DNA of 48,813 bases from an uncultured Bacilli bacterium (GTDB lineage: Bacteria > Bacillota_I > Bacilli_A > RF39 > UBA660), in assembly GCA_947628905.1 (NCBI GenBank), contig CANRBQ010000004.1:1-48813 (forward strand), in the 5' to 3' direction. A program made the position numbers and the translations under genes. This document shows, one piece after another, positions 9,793-26,789 of the stretch (the first letter of the stretch is position 1; each line of letters opens with the position of its first letter). Under the pieces are notes generated by a model that made no database searches, had not been told where the DNA came from, and saw only the letters and a program-made list of their open reading frames with translations.

Positions 9793-12612
9793 TTACTTAA
9801 CCACAATATTAACTATTTTCCCTTTAATAACAATTATTTTAACTATATCTTTACCATCTGTATGTTTCTTAACATTTTCATTATTTAAAGCTTTATCTTT
9901 AATACTTTCCTCATCTTCATCTGCTTTAACAGTAATTTCTCCTCTAAGTTTTCCATTAACTTGTACTCCAATTGTAACTTCATCATCAACTGTTTTAGCT
10001 TCATCATATGTTGGCCAATCCATTGCCGCGATATGTTTAGTATAACCAATCTCTTCATTTAATTCTTCTGTAATATGTGGAGCAATTGGATTTAATAAAA
10101 CTAATAATGTTTGATAATCTTTTTTAGTTATTTCTTTTTTATCTTCATAATTATTTGCTAAAATCATCAAACTAGAAACTGCTGTATTATATTTCATTGT
10201 AGCTAAATCATTAGTTACTTTTTTTATTGTTTTATGAATAATATTTTCTAAATCTTTTGAATATTCTTCTTTATCATTAATCTTTTCTTTTAATTTAATT
10301 ACTCTATCTAAAAATCTTTTACAACCTTTAAGCCCTTCATTACTCCATGGAATATCTTTTTCATAATCTCCCATGAACATTTCAAATAGTCTTAAAGTAT
10401 CTGCTCCATATTTATTTACAACATCAACTGGATTAATTCCATTTCCTTTAGATTTACTTATTTTAGTTCCATCTTCCGCTAAAATCATTCCATGAGCAAC
10501 TCTCTTTTTAAATGGTTCTGGTGTAGGTACTAATCCTTGATCATAAAGGAATTGATGCCAAAATCTTGCATAAAGTAAATGTCTTGTTGCATGTTCCATT
10601 CCCCCATTATAATAATCTACCATTCCCCAATACTTAAGAGCATCTTGCCCCACAAATTCTTTATCATTATGAGGATCCATATAGCGTAGCCAGTACCAAC
10701 TAGAACCAGCCCAGTTAGGCATTGTATCAGTCTCTCTTTTGGCCATTTTACCACACTTAGGACAAGGAGTATTAACCCATTCTGAAATATTGGCAAGTGG
10801 TGATTCTCCTGTATCTGTTGGTTCATAATGAGCAACTTTAGGAAGTAAAACTGGAAGTTCTTCTTCTGGTACAGGAACCCAACCACAATCTTCACAATAA
10901 ATCATTGGAATAGGTTCACCCCAGAATCTTTGTCTTGAAAATATCCAATCTTGTAAACGATAATTAACTGTTTTTTTACCAACTTTTTTCTCTTCTAAAA
11001 ATTCAAGCATTCTTTTAATAGCGGCTTCTTTATTAAGACCATTTAAGAAATCTGAATTAATATGAATGCCATCTCCCACCATAGCTCCAGGATTTAAAGC
11101 ATACATAAATGTTTTAGAGTGTAGTTCATCCTTAATTTCTTCTAAAATTGTTTTTTTATCTACCCATTCACAATCAAATTTTTCATCTGCATCTAAAGAC
11201 TGCGAATCTTGTTCATAATTATCTAATTCAAAATATAAACCTGTAGAATTAATATTAAAATATTTATCTTTATTATAAGCATAATAATGATGATTAATAA
11301 TTGGTAAAGTATATTTTAATGTTAAATTCTTATAACCCGTTTCTTCTTTTATTTCTCTAAGAGCACAATCTAATGGACTTTCATTTTCTTTAATTGTTCC
11401 TCCTACAAATAAACGTCCTCCTAATTCATGCCAATTAATAGTTAAATACTTATTTTCTTTTTTATCATAAACAATAGCAACGATAGAATTTTTCTTAACT
11501 TCATCTTTATTAGGAGTACCAGTTTCTTCTGCTAAAACCTGAATAATAGGTATATTAAATTTCTTAGCAAAAGCATAATCTCTCTCATCATGGGCAGGAA
11601 CTGCCATGATTGCTCCAGTTCCATAAGAAGCTAAAACATAATCACTTATATATATTGGTATTTCTTCATTATTAACTGGATTTATTGCTACTAAACCTTC
11701 TAATTTAACTCCAGTTTTATCTTTTGTTACATCAGTTCTTTCTATTTCACTTTTTTGTCTTGCAGCTTCTTGATAAGATTCTACTTCTGAAATATTTTTA
11801 ATTCTATCTTTATATTTTGTAAGAAAATCATGTTCTGGTGACATAACCATAAAAGTTACTCCAAATAAAGTATCACATCTCGTAGTAAATACTTTTAATA
11901 CATCATCAGTATCTTTAAGTTTAAAATCTACTTCAGCCCCAATACTTTTACCTATCCAATTTATTTGAGCTGTTTTAATTTTTTCTTCAAACTCTGTATC
12001 TTTAAGCCCATCAAGTAATCTATCTGCATAATCACTCATTCGTAAAATCCACTGTGATTTTAACTTTTTAGTTACAACTGAACCACATCTCTCACAAACT
12101 CCTCCTGCAGCATCTTCATTAGAAAGTCCTGTTCTACAATTAGGACACCAATTTATTTCTTTTAAAGCTTTATAAGCCATTCCCTTTTTTACAAATTGTA
12201 AAAACTGCCACTGTGTCCATTTATAATATTCTGGATCTGTTGTTGCAAACTCTCTTGACCAATCAAAAGACATACCTAAAGCCTCAATTTGTCCTTTAAA
12301 AGTTTTAATATTTTCCTTTACAGCATCTGCTGGATATATATGATTTTTTATCGCATATTGTTCTGCTGGAGCCCCAAAAGCATCCCATCCCATTGGAAAT
12401 AAAACATTATACCCTTGTAAACGTTTCATTCTAGCCATTGCATCTAATGCTGAATAACTTCTAACATGCCCCACATGTAAACCTGATCCACTTGGATAAG
12501 GAAATTCTACTAATATATAATATTTTTCTTTATTCCCCCCATTTTTAGCTTCAAAATAATGGTTATCAGCCCATATTTTTTGCCATTTTTTTTCTACTTC
12601 TTTTGTATTCAT
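9793..12612 (-). CDS. leuS: leucyl-tRNA synthetase with inserted Nudix domain
   Basis: FPYPSGSGLHVGH, GWDAFG, FTTRCDTLFG, GTGAIMAVPAHDERD, DWIFSRQRFWGEPIP, KISKSKGN. Confidence 0.98.
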   Translation of the reverse strand: MNTKEVEKKWQKIWADNHYFEAKNGGNKEKYYILVEFPYPSGSGLHVGHVRSYSALDAMARMKRLQGYNVLFPMGWDAFGAPAEQYAIKNHIYPADAVKENIKTFKGQIEALGMSFDWSREFATTDPEYYKWTQWQFLQFVKKGMAYKALKEINWCPNCRTGLSNEDAAGGVCERCGSVVTKKLKSQWILRMSDYADRLLDGLKDTEFEEKIKTAQINWIGKSIGAEVDFKLKDTDDVLKVFTTRCDTLFGVTFMVMSPEHDFLTKYKDRIKNISEVESYQEAARQKSEIERTDVTKDKTGVKLEGLVAINPVNNEEIPIYISDYVLASYGTGAIMAVPAHDERDYAFAKKFNIPIIQVLAEETGTPNKDEVKKNSIVAIVYDKKENKYLTINWHELGGRLFVGGTIKENESPLDCALREIKEETGYKNLTLKYTLPIINHHYYAYNKDKYFNINSTGLYFELDNYEQDSQSLDADEKFDCEWVDKKTILEEIKDELHSKTFMYALNPGAMVGDGIHINSDFLNGLNKEAAIKRMLEFLEEKKVGKKTVNYRLQDWIFSRQRFWGEPIPMIYCEDCGWVPVPEEELPVLLPKVAHYEPTDTGESPLANISEWVNTPCPKCGKMAKRETDTMPNWAGSSWYWLRYMDPHNDKEFVGQDALKYWGMVDYYNGGMEHATRHLLYARFWHQFLYDQGLVPTPEPFKKRVAHGMILAEDGTKISKSKGNGINPVDVVNKYGADTLRLFEMFMGDYEKDIPWSNEGLKGCKRFLDRVIKLKEKINDKEEYSKDLENIIHKTIKKVTNDLATMKYNTAVSSLMILANNYEDKKEITKKDYQTLLVLLNPIAPHITEELNEEIGYTKHIAAMDWPTYDEAKTVDDEVTIGVQVNGKLRGEITVKADEDEESIKDKALNNENVKKHTDGKDIVKIIVIKGKIVNIVVK

Positions 12613-13007
12613 TATTTTTTCTCCTCCAATTTTTTTAAATGTCTTCCATATAATTCATATAAAGAATAAATTAAACTAAATAATAGAACAAACGCTATTA
12701 AAAGTTGAAATACTATTGGTATATTAAGTATCATAACTATACTTGATACAAACGATATAATAAAACTATTAATAATGGCAATCCAAAATATTGCTCTATC
12801 TTTATTTAATTTTTTCTCTTTTAACTTAAATTTAAAAATTAAATAATCTAATTCACTAATAGGTTTAACTTTCTTCTTTTTTCCTTTTTTATTTTTTCCC
12901 TTATTATTTAATAACTTTAACTTTCTTTTATTAATTAAATAATAATCAACCAAAAAAATAACCAGCATTAAACCTAAAAACAAATATAAATTCTTTAAAT
13001 AATCCAT
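12612..13007 (-). CDS. small membrane protein, first gene of the T-box/leuS operon
   Basis: Three hydrophobic segments; GGAGG RBS; TAATG overlap with leuS. Confidence 0.7.
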   Translation of the reverse strand: MDYLKNLYLFLGLMLVIFLVDYYLINKRKLKLLNNKGKNKKGKKKKVKPISELDYLIFKFKLKEKKLNKDRAIFWIAIINSFIISFVSSIVMILNIPIVFQLLIAFVLLFSLIYSLYELYGRHLKKLEEKK

Positions 13008-13024: not shown

Positions 13025-13205
13025 CTAAAAAAAGGTCATACCTAAGGGCGAAAATTCCGCGGTACCACCTTTATTTCTATCTTTATAATCCTATATAGGA
13101 GATTACCCCTAATACTCTAAAAAGCAAGTTCATAATCATTTATTACTTGTTTACACCAACCACAAGTTCTCTCTAAATAAATTAACTATTACTACTCTTT
13201 TCTTC
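13025..13205 (-). promoter_or_regulatory. T-box riboswitch (Leu, specifier probably CUU)
   Basis: Minus strand: AGAGA...GGTTGGTGTAAAC...GAACTTGC...AAGGTGGTACCGCG-GAATTTT-CGCCCTT then a U tract. Confidence 0.9.
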
Positions 13206-13225
13206 CACGTATTTCCTATATTCTA

Positions 13226-23394: not shown

Positions 23395-23724
23395 ATGTAT
23401 ATTAAAACAAATAAACAAAAATATAATATTATAGTAGCTAACTCTTTTCATAAAAGATTAATAGGTTTAATGGGTAAAAAAAACATTAACTATGGTATGC
23501 TTTTTCCTAAATGTAATTCTATTCATACTTATTTTATGAAAGAAAATATTGATATTGTTGGTTTAAATGAAAATAATGAAGTAATATACAAATATGAAAA
23601 CTTAGATAAAAATAGAATAATTAAAATTAAATATGAACCTAAAAAAACAAGCATTTTAGAAATGCCTGCTAATAGTACTAAAAAAATTAAAATTGGAACT
23701 ATTCTTCTTTTCGATAATGATTAA
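23395..23724 (+). CDS. DUF192-family protein
   Basis: ANSFHKRLIGLM, GMLF..CNSIHTYFM...IDIV, ILEMP. Confidence 0.82.
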   Translation: MYIKTNKQKYNIIVANSFHKRLIGLMGKKNINYGMLFPKCNSIHTYFMKENIDIVGLNENNEVIYKYENLDKNRIIKIKYEPKKTSILEMPANSTKKIKIGTILLFDND

Positions 23725-25280
23725 TTATTTAACAAATATTTAATCTTTTCTTTATCAAAAGCCATTAACATTAATCCAAGTTTAGGCCCTTTAGAAATTC
23801 CAAGCAACATATTATATAATATTTGAAAATATCTTTTTTGAGCTTTTTTTAATTCATCATCAGTTAATACTCCATCTTTTACTACATCATATAAAGCTGT
23901 CTGTAAATCATTAGTAGTTTTATAATTATTATCTAATAATAAAATAGTTTTATTTACCCATTCTTTTTCTAAATTATTCAAACTATTATAAAACTCTTCA
24001 TTTCTACATTTAAGTAAATTTATTTGATAGTCTTTTCCATAATCATTAACCCAATTAGAAGCAAGTTCTAATCTTTGATTAAATTCCTTTGTATTAGTGT
24101 CTATTCCTTCTTTATTTAACAAACATTTTAATAAACCTCTATCAAAATTAACAACCGGAAGAAAAGTCGCCAAATAACTAAAATTCGGATTATTTAAATA
24201 TTCTTTTTTTACTCCCGTTAACTCAACAATACTTTTATTTTTTTCATCTATAGTTCCCTCAAAATACATTTTAACCCATCTATCAAACTCACTATAATAT
24301 CTAATAACATCATTATCTAATGCTATATCAAACGCATGCATATTATCAAATCTTGCATAAAACCACCATATAATATTTTTATCATATACTTTTAATAAAT
24401 CTGATATAGTAAGAACATTTCCTGTTGACGAAGACATTTTTGCTCCTCCTCCTTTAATCCCAATAAAATTATAAGGAATATAAATTGGAGGCTCATAATT
24501 AAATATTTCTTTTGCAACCCTTTCTGATACTGCTTTACTTCCATTAACTGCCGAATGATCTATACCACCTGTTTCAAAAGTAACATTTTCTATCATCCAA
24601 CGCATTGGCCAATCAACTTTCCATTGCAATTTAACATTTGTTGCATTATTAATATTTAATTTACTTTCATACCCACATTTGCAAATATAACTAACTTCTC
24701 CTGTTTTAGAATCATAATTAATAATTGTCGTAGAATCTTTTTTACAATTATGACAATAAATACTTATCGGAAAATAATTTTTTCTTTCTTCTTCAGTTGC
24801 CTCTTGCGTTCTAAAATCATCTATAATATCAAATATTCTATCTCTATTATCCATAGCAATTTTAATATATTTATTATATCTTCCACTTTGATATTCTTTA
24901 GCCTGATAAATACACTCTACTTCCACATCCATTGCTTTTAATTCCTTCAAAAATCTATTTTCCATATATTGCGCATAAGACTCATTATCTGTAAATGGAC
25001 TAGGTATTTCTGTATAAGGCATACCAATATATTTCTCATAACTAATTGGAATATTACCAGGAACTTTTCTAAATCTATCAAATTCATCAAAAGACAAAAT
25101 ATATCTAACCTTTTTCCCTAAATTTCTCAATTCTTTAGCAACAAGATAAGGAGTTGCAATCTCCCTAAAATTTCCAATATGCACTAATCCACTAGGACTT
25201 ACTCCACTTGCCACTGTATAAACTTTTTCATTTGGTCTTTCTTGAATAATTTTTAAAGCAACTTCTTTCGCCCAATTCAT
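23721..25280 (-). CDS. lysK: class I lysyl-tRNA synthetase
   Basis: ASGVSPSGLVHIGNFRE, KLQWKVDWPMRW, KMSSSTGN, GPKLG; likely start ATG 25280 after AAAGGA. Confidence 0.95.
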   Translation of the reverse strand: MNWAKEVALKIIQERPNEKVYTVASGVSPSGLVHIGNFREIATPYLVAKELRNLGKKVRYILSFDEFDRFRKVPGNIPISYEKYIGMPYTEIPSPFTDNESYAQYMENRFLKELKAMDVEVECIYQAKEYQSGRYNKYIKIAMDNRDRIFDIIDDFRTQEATEEERKNYFPISIYCHNCKKDSTTIINYDSKTGEVSYICKCGYESKLNINNATNVKLQWKVDWPMRWMIENVTFETGGIDHSAVNGSKAVSERVAKEIFNYEPPIYIPYNFIGIKGGGAKMSSSTGNVLTISDLLKVYDKNIIWWFYARFDNMHAFDIALDNDVIRYYSEFDRWVKMYFEGTIDEKNKSIVELTGVKKEYLNNPNFSYLATFLPVVNFDRGLLKCLLNKEGIDTNTKEFNQRLELASNWVNDYGKDYQINLLKCRNEEFYNSLNNLEKEWVNKTILLLDNNYKTTNDLQTALYDVVKDGVLTDDELKKAQKRYFQILYNMLLGISKGPKLGLMLMAFDKEKIKYLLNN

Positions 25281-25300
25281 TTTTACCATTCCTTTCAATT

Positions 25301-25335
25301 AAAAATGACCTAAAACCATTGATTGTTTTAAGTCA
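25301..25335 (-). terminator. attenuator terminator upstream of lysK
   Basis: tgacttaaaac-aatcaatg-gttttaggtca followed by U5 on the minus strand. Confidence 0.8.
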
Positions 25336-25368
25336 CTTATCTTCTAATATTAATAAATTTAACTAAAC

Positions 25369-25455
25369 CTACTTTAAAGATACACTAAAACAACCAATAA
25401 CAATTATTGATTTCTTATTCTTCTTTAAAGATTTCTTTATTGGTCTATTTAGCAT
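25369..25455 (-). CDS. Lys-rich leader peptide (28 aa) MLNRPIKKSLKKNKKSIIVIGCFSVSLK
   Basis: RBS GAAAGGAAG; six Lys codons in codons 7-15; lies between a promoter and a terminator; not in the supplied ORF track. Confidence 0.72.
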   Translation of the reverse strand: MLNRPIKKSLKKNKKSIIVIGCFSVSLK

Positions 25456-25480
25456 AATAAACTTCCTTTCAGCTAAATTA

Positions 25481-25509
25481 ATAATACCTCATTTTATTTA
25501 ATTTGTCAA
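25481..25509 (-). promoter_or_regulatory. sigma-A promoter for the leader-lysK transcript
   Basis: TTGACA (25509-25504), 17 nt, TATTAT (25486-25481). Confidence 0.8.
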
Positions 25510-25517
25510 ATTATAAT

Positions 25518-26789
25518 TTATTCTTTAAATTCAAACATATAATCACAAATTTGGACTAAATCTCCTCTTTTAGCACCCATTCTTTCTAGCTCTTCTTCAA
25601 CTCCCATTCCCTTTAACTTTCTGGCAAATCTAACTACAGCCTCATCTTCAGAAAAACGTGTCATTTTAAATAATTTCTCTAGTTCTTTCCCCTCTAATAT
25701 CCAAATATCTCCATCTTTTGTAATTGTAAAAGGCTTTTCATCTTTAAATTTATAAACAACATGACTTTCTAATTCATTTTCATTATCTAAATCATTACTT
25801 AATTCTTCTAATATATTAGCACATCTTTCCATTAAAGTATCAAATCCTTCATTAGTAACCGAACTAACAGGAATAACTTCTTTATCTTTAAACTTTTCCC
25901 TAAATTTCTCTAAATTATCTAAAGCCTCAGGTAAATCCATTTTATTAGCGACAATTAACTCTTTTTTCTTTGCCAATTTATCACTATATTGTTCTATTTC
26001 TTCTCTAATACTTAAATAATCTTGTATTGGATCTCTTCCTTCTTCACTACCCATATCTATAACATGCACTAATATTTTTGTTCTCATCGCATGTCTCAAA
26101 AATTTATGTCCTAACCCGAGACCAGTATGAGCTCCTTCAATTAGTCCTGGTAAATCTGCCATAATAAATGAACGACTATCTTTTAATTTAACAACTCCTA
26201 AATTTGGTGCTAAAGTTGTAAAATGATAACTTGCAACTTTTGGTCTCGCAGCACTTATTGTTGCTAAAATAGTTGATTTACCTACACTTGGAAAACCAAT
26301 CAAACCTACATCTGCAATAACTTTAAGTTCAACTTTTAAAATCTTTTCTTCTCCAGGCTCTCCTAGTTCACTAATTCTTGGAGCATTATCACTATGAGTT
26401 TTAAACGCCGCATTCCCACGACCTCCTCGTCCACCTCTAGCAACTACTGCTTCTTTATTATCTCCAACTAAATCTGCAATAACCATATTTGTATCTTTAT
26501 CTGTTATTACAGTTCCCTCAGGCACTTTAATTACTACATCCGAAGCATTAGCCCCTTGTCTATTAGAGCCTTTTCCATTTTCTCCCTTATCTGCTTTAAT
26601 TATCTTCATATATCTTAAATCTATTAAAGTTTTTAACCCTTTATCAACTTTAAATACAATATTAGCTCCATGTCCTCCATTACCACCATCTGGACCACCC
26701 ATAGCTACATATTTTTCTCTTCTAAATGAAGTACATCCATCTCCCCCTTTACCCGCAACAACTTTAATTGTAAGTTCATCAACAAACAT
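25518..26789 (-). CDS. obgE: GTPase ObgE
   Basis: MFVDE..GKGGDG..SFRREKY, ADVGLIGFPSVGKST, YHFTTL, DLPGLIEGAH, NKMD, C-terminal DUF1967-like region. Confidence 0.98.
   Translation of the reverse strand: MFVDELTIKVVAGKGGDGCTSFRREKYVAMGGPDGGNGGHGANIVFKVDKGLKTLIDLRYMKIIKADKGENGKGSNRQGANASDVVIKVPEGTVITDKDTNMVIADLVGDNKEAVVARGGRGGRGNAAFKTHSDNAPRISELGEPGEEKILKVELKVIADVGLIGFPSVGKSTILATISAARPKVASYHFTTLAPNLGVVKLKDSRSFIMADLPGLIEGAHTGLGLGHKFLRHAMRTKILVHVIDMGSEEGRDPIQDYLSIREEIEQYSDKLAKKKELIVANKMDLPEALDNLEKFREKFKDKEVIPVSSVTNEGFDTLMERCANILEELSNDLDNENELESHVVYKFKDEKPFTITKDGDIWILEGKELEKLFKMTRFSEDEAVVRFARKLKGMGVEEELERMGAKRGDLVQICDYMFEFKE

What the first reader, a model, noticed from the sequence alone, without database searches (positions are those of the whole stretch)
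25301..25509. Lysine-sensing leader-peptide attenuator upstream of class I LysRS
Seen on the minus strand, in order: TTGACA-17-TATTAT promoter; RBS; unannotated 28-aa ORF (25455-25369) with Lys at codons 7, 8, 11, 12, 14, 15 (mostly AAG); then a terminator (25335-25306 plus U5). Mutually exclusive pairings exist. 1:2 is ACCAAUAA (25400-25393 side pairing with 25444-25437, 8 bp). 2:3 is AUUGGUUGUUUUAG (25398-25385) with UUAAAACAAUCAAU (25331-25318), 14 bp with two G-U pairs. 3:4 is the terminator. A ribosome stalled on the Lys run would free segment 2 to form the antiterminator. Established: this is trp/his-type attenuation, whereas Firmicute synthetase genes normally use T-boxes, as leuS does here. 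I know of no characterised Lys leader-peptide attenuator for a LysRS.
Basis: partly seen in the sequence, partly recalled or inferred. Interest (0 to 1): 0.78.

Follow-up and report, generated by a model that had tools for sequence, protein, structure and literature searches.

The report
Lysine-codon leader-peptide attenuator before LysRS

Summary
The leader has a promoter, a Shine-Dalgarno sequence, a 28-codon uORF with Lys at codons 7, 8, 11, 12, 14 and 15, a terminator with a U-tract, and the 1:2, 2:3 and 3:4 pairings.

It is not chance. All 35 lysK loci with LysRS at least 67% identical and enough upstream DNA carry the same leader. Upstream neighbours differ among the loci examined.

- **RNA structure:** All three pairings hold in 94-97% of cells across 25 distinct sequences. 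Compensatory changes occur, including one position that co-varies in segments 1, 2 and 3.
- **Coding signal:** The ATG never varies, though its pairing partners do. Variation in codons 7-15 is concentrated at third positions. The six Lys positions are Lys in 121 of 137 cells, with AAA and AAG interchanging. The C-terminal residues change with the RNA pairing.
- **Ribosome model:** Masking a ribosome footprint at codons 7-8 switches the fold to the antiterminator in 23 of 25 leaders.
- **Known families:** No Rfam family matches. More distant lysK orthologs (Bacillaceae, Paenibacillus, Anaerosolibacter) carry T-boxes at this position.

The best reading is a trp/his/pheST-type attenuator that senses Lys-tRNA(Lys). 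That makes it a new member of a known kind, so far untested by experiment. I found no published Lys equivalent.

The parts
25481..25509 (-). Sigma-70-type promoter: TTGACA (25509..25504), 17-nt spacer, TATTAT (25486..25481)
   Evidence: It scores 11 of 12, the best site in the scan. In 21 of 24 orthologous leaders a site scoring at least 9 of 12 ends 21-29 nt upstream of the uORF ATG.
25462..25470 (-). Shine-Dalgarno sequence GAAAGGAAG of the leader ORF, 6 nt upstream of the ATG
   Evidence: Read directly from the sequence. It is conserved at alignment columns 6-14 of A2.
25369..25455 (-). Leader ORF of 28 codons plus stop: MLNRPIKKSLKKNKKSIIVIGCFSVSLK*
   Evidence: Listed. The ORF is open from the aligned ATG in 25 of 25 distinct leaders, at 26-29 codons in 24 and 16 in L002. 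The ATG is invariant while its pairing partners vary.
25411..25437 (-). Regulatory codon block: Lys codons 7, 8, 11, 12, 14 and 15 (AAG AAA .. .. AAG AAG AAU AAG AAA)
   Evidence: Across orthologs 121 of 137 cells at these six positions are Lys (AAG 64, AAA 57). G occurs at codon positions 1, 2 and 3 in 3, 0 and 67 cells. AAG makes up 16.9% of Lys codons in window genes but 5 of 7 in this leader, P = 0.002.
25437..25456 (-). Segment 1 (start codon through codon 7), which pairs with segment 2
   Evidence: Present in the MFE fold and in the independent RNAalifold consensus. It is 93.9% paired, with 5 pairs showing compensatory change.
25405..25412 (-). Segment 1b, AAUCAAUA (codons 15-17), a nearly invariant local partner of the 5' half of segment 2
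   Evidence: 98.5% paired with alignment columns 79-86. Its role is unknown.
25381..25400 (-). Segment 2, UUAUUGGUUGUUUUAGUGUA (codons 19-25), which pairs with either segment 1 or segment 3
   Evidence: Supported. Alignment column 87 co-varies with column 29 (segment 1) and with column 167 (segment 3) in 3 sequences each.
25318..25337 (-). Segment 3: the terminator 5' arm and loop. It is also the 3' strand of the antiterminator (25331..25318)
   Evidence: The 2:3 pairing is 96.5% paired across orthologs and has a duplex energy of -12.7 kcal/mol.
25301..25317 (-). Segment 4, the terminator 3' arm GGUUUUAGGUCAU, followed by the U-tract (25305..25301)
   Evidence: The 3:4 pairing is 95.9% paired, with 6 pairs and 40 cells showing compensatory change. 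Four T columns of the U-tract are invariant.
23721..25296 (-). [quoted passage not shown]
   Evidence: TIGR00467 lysS_arch at 403 bits and PF01921. The N-terminal residues M1, N2 and W3 are invariant in orthologs. A terminator-like hairpin at 23670..23646 follows the gene.

Best explanation
This is a classical ribosome-mediated (leader-peptide) transcription attenuator that sets class I LysRS expression according to the supply of Lys-tRNA(Lys). The steps below marked "inferred" rest on modelling and analogy, not on an experiment.

**Start of the transcript.** Transcription starts at the promoter a few bases upstream of the Shine-Dalgarno sequence. A ribosome loads on the 28-codon leader ORF while RNA polymerase moves on.

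**When Lys-tRNA is plentiful (inferred).** The ribosome runs through codons 7-15 and then over segment 2 (codons 19-25). Segment 2 is therefore either covered by the ribosome or re-pairs with segment 1 afterwards. Segment 3 is left free to pair with segment 4. The terminator hairpin and U-tract form about 20 nt before the lysK start codon, and transcription stops.

**When Lys-tRNA is scarce (inferred).** The ribosome stalls at the Lys codons just 3' of segment 1. Its footprint covers segment 1 but leaves segment 2 free. Segment 2 pairs with segment 3 as segment 3 emerges, giving the 13-14 bp antiterminator. The terminator cannot form, and lysK is transcribed.

**With no ribosome (inferred).** The 1:2 helix forms and also buries the start codon. 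The terminator then forms, so the default state is off.

**What is shown.** The sequence elements are present. They are conserved. The alternative pairings co-vary. The Lys codons show coding-type constraint.

**What is inferred.** The stalling itself, the kinetic competition between the helices, and the response to lysine.
For: **Anatomy.** The elements are exactly as described.

**Distribution.** The leader is found in 35 of 35 loci of the clade (LysRS 67-84% identical) that have upstream DNA. The motif occurs once per locus, always upstream of lysK, and once in the window. The ten loci with gene calls show varied upstream neighbours: ABC transporters, NUDIX and unannotated genes, a tRNA-His in L166, and obg in the window.

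**RNA structure.**
- RNAalifold predicts the 1:2 helix and the terminator without any input from me.
- 1:2 is 93.9% paired, with 5 pairs and 12 cells showing compensatory change; 0 of 500 shuffles reach the covariation score.
- 2:3 is 96.5% paired.
- 3:4 is 95.9% paired, with 6 pairs and 40 cells showing compensatory change.
- Sliding the partner by one or more columns drops pairing to 27-58% in each case.
- Segment 2 column 87 changes G to A in 3 sequences. At its pairing partners, column 29 (segment 1) shows UA in 3 sequences and column 167 (segment 3) shows AU in 3.

**Translation.**
- The Shine-Dalgarno sequence and ATG are conserved. The ATG is invariant while its partners toggle (UG 14 / UA 10; GC 17 / GU 7).
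- The two length changes between the ATG and segment 2 are both 3 nt (L166; L002/L162).
- Non-consensus cells in codons 7-15 number 20, 23 and 57 at codon positions 1, 2 and 3.
- Lys is kept in 121 of 137 cells, with AAA and AAG interchanging.
- C-terminal residues change as the RNA pairing demands (GGU to GAU gives G to D; UGU to UAU gives C to Y). This argues that the peptide itself is not the product under selection.

**Geometry.** In folds of the transcript cut just before segment 4:
- No ribosome gives 1:2 in 20 of 25 leaders.
- A footprint with the A site at codon 7 or 8 gives 2:3 in 23 of 25.
- A footprint at codons 20-26 gives essentially no 2:3: none at codons 22-26 in any leader, and only 2-4 stray pairs at codon 20 in two leaders.

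**Context.**
- More distant lysK orthologs (Bacillaceae, Paenibacillus, Anaerosolibacter) carry a T-box at the same place, so a charged-tRNA sensor is the expected kind of control for this gene.
- The clade also has T-boxes and Lys riboswitches elsewhere.

**Precedent.** Attenuators at synthetase genes (PMC1262725, PMC2965389) and a leader-peptide attenuator in a Firmicute (PMC5794164).
Against: - No expression data exist. All organisms involved are uncultured MAGs or metagenome contigs.
- With the full-length leader the terminator is the most stable fold under every ribosome mask. Antitermination must therefore be kinetic, as it is for the E. coli trp leader (textbook energies, from my own knowledge).
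- In the masking model a stall at codons 12-15 lets 1:2 re-form in many leaders. Whether that is sterically possible around a ribosome cannot be judged here. Only Lys codons 7, 8 and 11 are clearly well placed.
- A stall at any of codons 3-11 gives the same outcome in the model. Lys specificity rests on codon identity alone.
- Some orthologs keep only 3-4 Lys codons (L159, L002, L089, L097).
- The start codon lies inside the 1:2 helix, so the ribosome must load before segment 2 is transcribed.
- In Bacillus subtilis RNA polymerase outruns ribosomes (my own knowledge, not checked here). That could weaken coupling-dependent control in relatives.
- Lys is common in this genome (9% of codons) and Lys-dense stretches are frequent.
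Confidence: 0.75

Rival explanations
1. The leader is an RNA-only or trans-factor switch. The same terminator/antiterminator leader is controlled by something that binds the RNA directly: uncharged tRNA-Lys as in a T-box, free lysine, or LysRS itself. The A-rich loop is the recognition site and the uORF is incidental.
For: Nucleotide conservation is high in the loop, including the nearly invariant AAAUCAAUA. The start codon is buried in the 1:2 helix. More distant lysK orthologs (Bacillaceae, Paenibacillus, Anaerosolibacter) use a tRNA-binding T-box.
Against: No T-box, Lys riboswitch or any other Rfam family matches up to E = 10. The same searches do find a T-box and an L-box elsewhere. The UGG of segment 2 is not conserved (UUGAUU in several leaders), so there is no T-box-like acceptor-binding bulge. 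Variation is concentrated at codon third positions, AAA and AAG interchange, the ATG and Shine-Dalgarno sequence are invariant, and indels are in frame. An RNA-only model does not predict any of these.
Confidence: 0.1
2. The leader is a general translation-rate sensor. The uORF is translated and stalling triggers antitermination, but the signal is any slowdown of ribosomes (overall amino-acid starvation, ribosome-targeting drugs, Asn limitation through the Asn codons) rather than Lys-tRNA specifically.
For: In the masking model a stall anywhere in codons 3-11 gives the antiterminator. Asn codons 3, 4 and 13 are conserved and are mostly the rare AAC. The B. cereus lysK T-box is cross-induced by uncharged tRNA-Asn (PMC2916919).
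Against: Six positions are held as Lys across the clade with synonymous interchange. The regulated gene is LysRS. Asn codons 3-4 are explained by their pairing with GUUGUU in segment 2.
Confidence: 0.08
3. The uORF encodes a functional micropeptide, with a basic N-terminus and a hydrophobic IGCFS tail, for example a small membrane or lipobox-like peptide. The hairpins are ordinary mRNA structure.
For: The peptide sequence looks conserved (consensus MLNNQIKKSIKKNKKSIxxIGCFSVSSK).
Against: The conserved C-terminal residues change exactly where the RNA pairing changes (G to D in 5 sequences, C to Y in 2), with matching changes in segments 1 and 3. L002/L162 truncate the peptide at 16 residues yet keep segments 2-4. 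Length after codon 24 varies.
Confidence: 0.03
4. It is a chance arrangement: an AT-rich intergenic spacer with a fortuitous ORF and hairpins.
For: Lys-dense windows are frequent in this genome (7 on this strand). Promoter-like hexamers are common in AT-rich DNA (12 found against 19 expected).
Against: The leader is conserved in 35 of 35 loci, with covariation in three overlapping helices. The shuffle and slide controls are all exceeded.
Confidence: 0.01

Closest known systems
E. coli pheST (pheM) leader-peptide attenuator, and the predicted trpS/leuS attenuators of Streptomyces (PMC1262725)
   Same: A short leader ORF is enriched in codons for the amino acid that the downstream synthetase charges. 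It is followed by overlapping 1:2, 2:3 and 3:4 pairings and an intrinsic terminator. The sensed signal is the charged cognate tRNA.
   Different: The amino acid is Lys. The gene is a class I LysRS. The lineage is AT-rich uncultured Bacilli/'Tenericutes'. There is no sequence similarity and no Rfam leader family matches. The Lys codons lie just 3' of segment 1, in the loop of the 1:2 helix, rather than inside segment 1. An extra local partner (1b) of segment 2 is present. The stop codon lies 3' of segment 2 in most members.
T-box leader of lysK in Bacillus cereus (PMC2916919; RF00230)
   Same: It occupies the same position in front of an orthologous class I LysRS gene. It has the same logical input, tRNA-Lys charging. 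It has the same output, terminator against antiterminator.
   Different: The T-box binds uncharged tRNA directly and needs no translation. The window leader has no T-box features and instead has a translated-looking Lys-codon ORF. The B. cereus T-box is also partly induced by tRNA-Asn.
His leader peptide upstream of hisS paralogs (hisZ, hisS*) in bacilli (PMC2965389), and the Leu attenuator peptide of S. aureus ilv-leu (PMC5794164)
   Same: These are 'regular' leader-peptide attenuators in Firmicutes, standing where T-boxes are usual.
   Different: They differ in amino acid, genes and sequence. The S. aureus case has genetic support; the one described here has none.
E. coli trp and his operon attenuators
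   Same: The four-segment logic is the same, and so is the default termination when the leader is not translated. The terminator is thermodynamically dominant and the decision is kinetic.
   Different: They control biosynthetic operons rather than a synthetase. Their regulatory codons lie within segment 1, and their stop codon lies between segments 1 and 2. Only the L002/L162 variant here has that stop-codon geometry.

Membership tests
Classical leader-peptide (ribosome-mediated) transcription attenuator | A short ORF close to the promoter, with its own Shine-Dalgarno sequence and start codon | tested here: met
   Seen. It is conserved in 25 of 25 distinct leaders, with the promoter 21-29 nt upstream in 21 of 24.
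Classical leader-peptide (ribosome-mediated) transcription attenuator | The leader ORF is enriched in codons for the amino acid relevant to the regulated gene | tested here: met
   Six Lys codons fall within codons 7-15. Across orthologs 121 of 137 cells are Lys, with AAA and AAG interchanging.
Classical leader-peptide (ribosome-mediated) transcription attenuator | An intrinsic terminator lies between the leader ORF and the structural gene | tested here: met
   The hairpin has -13.9 kcal/mol and is followed by U5. It is 95.9% paired with 6 co-varying pairs and an invariant U-tract. The simple terminator scan did not list it, although by my count the stem carries three G-C pairs. I did not find out why it was missed.
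Classical leader-peptide (ribosome-mediated) transcription attenuator | Mutually exclusive 1:2, 2:3 and 3:4 pairings that share segments | tested here: met
   Shown. Columns 29, 87 and 167 co-vary three ways.
Classical leader-peptide (ribosome-mediated) transcription attenuator | The regulatory codons are placed so that a stalled ribosome blocks segment 1 and leaves segment 2 free | tested here: inconclusive
   Footprint-masked folding gives the antiterminator for the A site at codons 7-8 in 23 of 25 leaders, and at codon 11 in the window. For codons 12-15 the result depends on whether 1:2 can close around a ribosome. This is a thermodynamic model only.
Classical leader-peptide (ribosome-mediated) transcription attenuator | Read-through rises on starvation for the cognate amino acid and depends on translation of the leader | not testable with these tools
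   This needs reporter assays, in vitro coupled assays, or Term-seq and Ribo-seq.
T-box leader (RF00230) | Stem I with a specifier loop, the conserved T-box sequence, and an antiterminator bulge with UGGN. In practice this means a match to the covariance model. | tested here: not met
   No T-box match with E up to 10 in 25200..25600. The same model finds the leuS T-box in the window and T-boxes upstream of lysK in L008, L011, L012 and L015-L018.
Lysine riboswitch (RF00168) | A match to the L-box aptamer model | tested here: not met
   No match. As a positive control, L167 4115-4287 scores 87.4 bits.
Rfam amino-acid leader families (His, Trp, Leu, Thr and similar leaders) | A match to any curated leader model | tested here: not met
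   Only four chance-level hits (E of 2 or more) to unrelated eukaryotic or Listeria families. There are no hits in 14 orthologous loci.

The most novel reading that the evidence does not exclude
This is the first lysine-specific leader-peptide attenuator. It controls what may be the sole, housekeeping LysRS of a whole clade of uncultured reduced-genome gut Bacilli, and it stands where more distant lysK orthologs (Bacillaceae, Paenibacillus, Anaerosolibacter) have a T-box. Letting the ribosome read the Lys codons, which are enriched in the rare AAG, could avoid the Lys/Asn ambiguity reported for the lysK T-box. That would offer one answer to why T-box control of LysRS is so rare.
Probability: 0.6. 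Interest if true: 0.65.

Novelty: new member of a known kind. Interest (0 to 1): 0.6.

Why it matters
- **A new specificity for a classical mechanism.** I found no described attenuator with lysine specificity. The search covered only the held open-access library.
- **An evolutionary swap of sensor.** In orthologous genes the same input (tRNA-Lys charging) and the same output (terminator choice) are served by a T-box in more distant orthologs (Bacillaceae, Paenibacillus, Anaerosolibacter) and by a ribosome-read uORF here. The organisms concerned still use T-boxes and Lys riboswitches for neighbouring genes.
- **A bearing on an open question.** Foy et al. (PMC2916919) called the rarity of T-box control of LysRS 'puzzling'.
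- **Annotation value.** It gives a defined motif for annotating lysK leaders in uncultured gut Bacilli.
- **A reusable part.** The leader is compact (about 175 nt) and could be recoded, so it may serve as a charged-tRNA sensor in low-GC hosts.

Tried and rejected
- **Rfam, whole window, gathering and E-value thresholds, and the leader alone up to E = 10.** Nothing relevant matched the leader, so the T-box and L-box readings were rejected.
- **Full-length masked folding.** The terminator is the MFE under every ribosome position, so equilibrium folding of the complete leader does not discriminate. I replaced it with folding of the transcript cut before segment 4.
- **First motif search with the wrong spacer, N6 instead of N7.** It found nothing.
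- **Scan for Lys-rich uORFs upstream of the 117 more distant lysK loci.** Only L006 has a credible one with a Shine-Dalgarno sequence and a terminator. The other hits lack a Shine-Dalgarno sequence or lie far upstream. Orthologs at 57-66% identity mostly have a promoter directly before the gene.
- **tRNA genes next to lysK.** None is tRNA-Lys.
- **Covariance model.** I did not build one.

Full report
**1. What is in the window.**

The finding lies in the 237-nt spacer between obg (25518..26789, minus; NF008955 at 587 bits) and a class I lysyl-tRNA synthetase (ATG at 25280, stop at 23721; TIGR00467 at 403 bits, PF01921). The window has about 25% G+C.

- Promoter TTGACA-17-TATTAT at 25509..25481, scoring 11 of 12, the best site in the region.
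- Shine-Dalgarno GAAAGGAAG at 25470..25462.
- A 28-codon ORF at 25455..25369, MLNRPIKKSLKKNKKSIIVIGCFSVSLK*, with Lys at codons 7, 8, 11, 12, 14 and 15.
- A hairpin at 25337..25305 followed by U5.
- The lysK Shine-Dalgarno sequence and ATG about 20 nt further on.

The stated 1:2 and 2:3 pairings are correct base for base. The leader's MFE is a long 1:2 hairpin (17-18 bp, which includes the start codon) plus the terminator. Its z-score against shuffles is -3.2.

**2. Is it more than chance?**

The single sequence gives only a moderate answer. Lys makes up 9% of codons in this genome. Six other windows on the same strand have at least 6 Lys in 9 codons; those I looked at lie inside long ORFs. 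Shuffled sequence gives 0.5 such windows.

The comparative data settle the question. I fetched 167 lysK loci from genomes and metagenomes. All 35 loci whose LysRS is 67-84% identical to the window's, and which have enough upstream DNA, carry the same leader:
- 33 match the strict motif AARTCAAT-N7-RTTGRTTRTTTT. It occurs once per locus, always upstream of lysK, and once in the window.
- L002 and L162 carry a variant.

The ten loci with gene calls show varied upstream neighbours: ABC transporters, NUDIX and unannotated genes, and a tRNA-His in L166. In the window the neighbour is obg. The leader therefore belongs to lysK rather than to its upstream gene. Record titles name these organisms 'Bacilli bacterium' or 'uncultured Tenericutes' MAGs, and several contigs come from human-gut metagenomes.

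**3. RNA evidence.**

I aligned 25 distinct leaders (alignment A2).

| Pairing | Cells paired | Compensatory change |
|---|---|---|
| 1:2 | 93.9% | 5 pairs, 12 cells; 0 of 500 shuffles reach the covariation score |
| 2:3 | 96.5% | mostly one-sided G-U/A-U/G-C changes, plus one G-C to A-U pair in three sequences |
| 3:4 | 95.9% | 6 pairs, 40 cells |

- RNAalifold, run without any input from me, predicts the 1:2 helix and the terminator.
- Sliding the partner strand by 1-3 columns drops pairing to 27-58% in each case.
- Segment 2 column 87 changes G to A in three sequences. Its partner in segment 1 (column 29) shows UA in three sequences, and its partner in segment 3 (column 167) shows AU in three. 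By eye these are L002, L097 and L166. One strand being kept complementary to two alternative partners is the signature of a switch.
- A further local partner of segment 2 exists: AAUCAAUA at codons 15-17, 98.5% paired. It is nearly invariant and I cannot explain its role.

**4. Evidence that the ORF is read.**

- The Shine-Dalgarno sequence and its spacing are conserved.
- The ATG is invariant in all 25 leaders, while the bases paired to it toggle (U-G 14 / U-A 10; G-C 17 / G-U 7). Something other than pairing therefore fixes the ATG.
- The frame is open for 26-29 codons in 24 of 25 leaders.
- The only two length changes between the ATG and segment 2 are both 3 nt.
- In codons 7-15, which lie in the loop of the 1:2 helix, non-consensus cells number 20, 23 and 57 at codon positions 1, 2 and 3.
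- At the six Lys positions 121 of 137 cells are Lys (AAG 64, AAA 57). G appears 3, 0 and 67 times at positions 1, 2 and 3.
- AAG is the minor Lys codon in the window's genes (16.9%) but accounts for 5 of 7 Lys codons in the leader, P = 0.002. Possible reasons, both inference, are greater sensitivity to charging or avoidance of long A runs.

The C-terminal 'conserved' residues, by contrast, follow the RNA. GGU to GAU (Gly to Asp) occurs in five leaders and UGU to UAU (Cys to Tyr) in two, with matching changes in the partner strands. L002/L162 stop at codon 17, just before segment 2. The peptide itself is therefore unlikely to be the selected product.

**5. Mechanism.**

With the complete leader the terminator is the MFE whatever the ribosome position. 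Any antitermination must therefore be kinetic, as in the E. coli trp leader (my own knowledge). I then folded the transcript as it exists before segment 4 emerges, with a 27-nt ribosome footprint masked.

| Ribosome position | Window | 25 leaders |
|---|---|---|
| None | 1:2 forms (17 pairs), no 2:3 | 1:2 forms in 20 of 25 |
| A site at codons 6-11 | 14-bp 2:3 antiterminator | 2:3 at codons 7-8 in 23 of 25 |
| A site at codons 19-28 (window); 20-26 (25 leaders) | segment 2 covered, no 2:3 | none at 22-26; 2-4 stray pairs at codon 20 in two leaders |

Isolated energies are 1:2 at -18.6, 2:3 at -12.7 and the terminator at -13.9 kcal/mol.

This supports the classical logic. A stall at the Lys codons masks segment 1, the antiterminator forms, and lysK is transcribed. 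Smooth translation, or no translation at all, gives termination.

The weak points are these:
- For stalls at codons 12-15 the model lets 1:2 re-form around the ribosome. Whether that is sterically possible is unknown.
- Any stall in codons 3-11 would have the same effect, so Lys specificity rests on codon identity.
- The start codon sits inside 1:2, so the ribosome must load early.

**6. Comparison with known systems.**

- No Rfam family matches the leader. The same searches find a T-box upstream of leuS in the window (13041..13216, 86.7 bits against a gathering score of 93). They also find a lysine riboswitch and a T-box immediately downstream of lysK in L167.
- Orthologs at 41-43% identity in Bacillaceae, Paenibacillus and Anaerosolibacter carry T-boxes exactly where this leader sits. 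This agrees with the characterised B. cereus lysK T-box (PMC2916919).
- That paper reports that T-box control of LysRS is rare, is found only for second LysRS copies, and is cross-induced by tRNA-Asn.
- Orthologs at 57-66% identity mostly have a plain promoter. L006 (63%) has a different Lys-rich uORF, MTKNKKANKKHFN*, inside a long hairpin followed by a terminator.
- Leader-peptide attenuation of synthetase genes is known for E. coli pheST and predicted for Streptomyces trpS and leuS (PMC1262725). That paper stated that no Firmicute synthetase genes use it.
- Later work predicted a His leader peptide before hisS paralogs in bacilli (PMC2965389) and gave genetic support for a Leu attenuator peptide in S. 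aureus (PMC5794164).
- Four literature searches found no Lys leader-peptide attenuator. The library searched is limited to open-access papers.

**7. Verdict.**

The element meets every sequence-level criterion of a classical attenuator. The placement of the regulatory codons is supported by modelling only, and function is untested.

It is a new member of a known kind: new in amino acid, gene and lineage, and standing where related genes have a T-box. I put the probability that it is a Lys-tRNA-responsive, ribosome-mediated attenuator at about 0.75.

Noticed in passing
window 9793..12612 (-): The LeuRS is 939 aa long and carries a NUDIX domain (PF00293, residues 377-494, E = 2.9e-12). The domain is inserted directly after the part of the editing domain that matches PF13603 (residues 218-372 match profile positions 2-152 of 185). 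NCBIfam nudix models also hit this region.
   Followed up: partly
window 13041..13216 (-) and 12612..13007 (-): A T-box leader (86.7 bits, just under Rfam's gathering score of 93, E = 1.5e-17) precedes an unannotated 131-aa ORF. That ORF has no Pfam match and contains a Lys-rich stretch. Its stop overlaps the leuS start by one base, so the T-box seems to control a two-gene unit.
   Followed up: partly
L167 4115-4287 and 5275-5552: In one ortholog locus, lysK is followed directly by a lysine riboswitch in front of a DHDPS (dapA-like) gene, and then by a T-box in front of the next gene. Three different RNA sensors lie within 3.5 kb.
   Followed up: no
L006 1388-1525: A LysRS 63% identical to the window's has a different leader. 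Its uORF is MTKNKKANKKHFN*, and its Lys codons lie inside a long hairpin. The hairpin is followed by the terminator CUCAAAGU-GACCAA-ACUUUGAG-U8 (z = -2.85). It is either a diverged relative or an independent Lys-uORF leader; only one example was found.
   Followed up: partly
window 25405..25412 (-); A2 columns 66-73: AAUCAAUA (codons 15-17 of the leader) is almost invariant. It can form an 8-bp local hairpin with the 5' half of segment 2, and it has the same sequence as part of segment 3. Its role in the switch is unexplained.
   Followed up: partly
A2 codons 3, 4 and 13 of the leader ORF: The Asn codons of the leader are mostly AAC in orthologs (17 of 21, 10 of 19 and 15 of 19). In the window's own genes AAC is only 3.7% of Asn codons. 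Codons 3-4 are explained by pairing, but codon 13 is not. This could link to the Lys/Asn cross-talk reported for the lysK T-box (PMC2916919).
   Followed up: no
window 23395..23724 (+) and 23646..23670 (-): A DUF192 ORF converges on lysK and overlaps its 3' end by 4 nt. The terminator-like hairpin that follows lysK lies inside that ORF.
   Followed up: no
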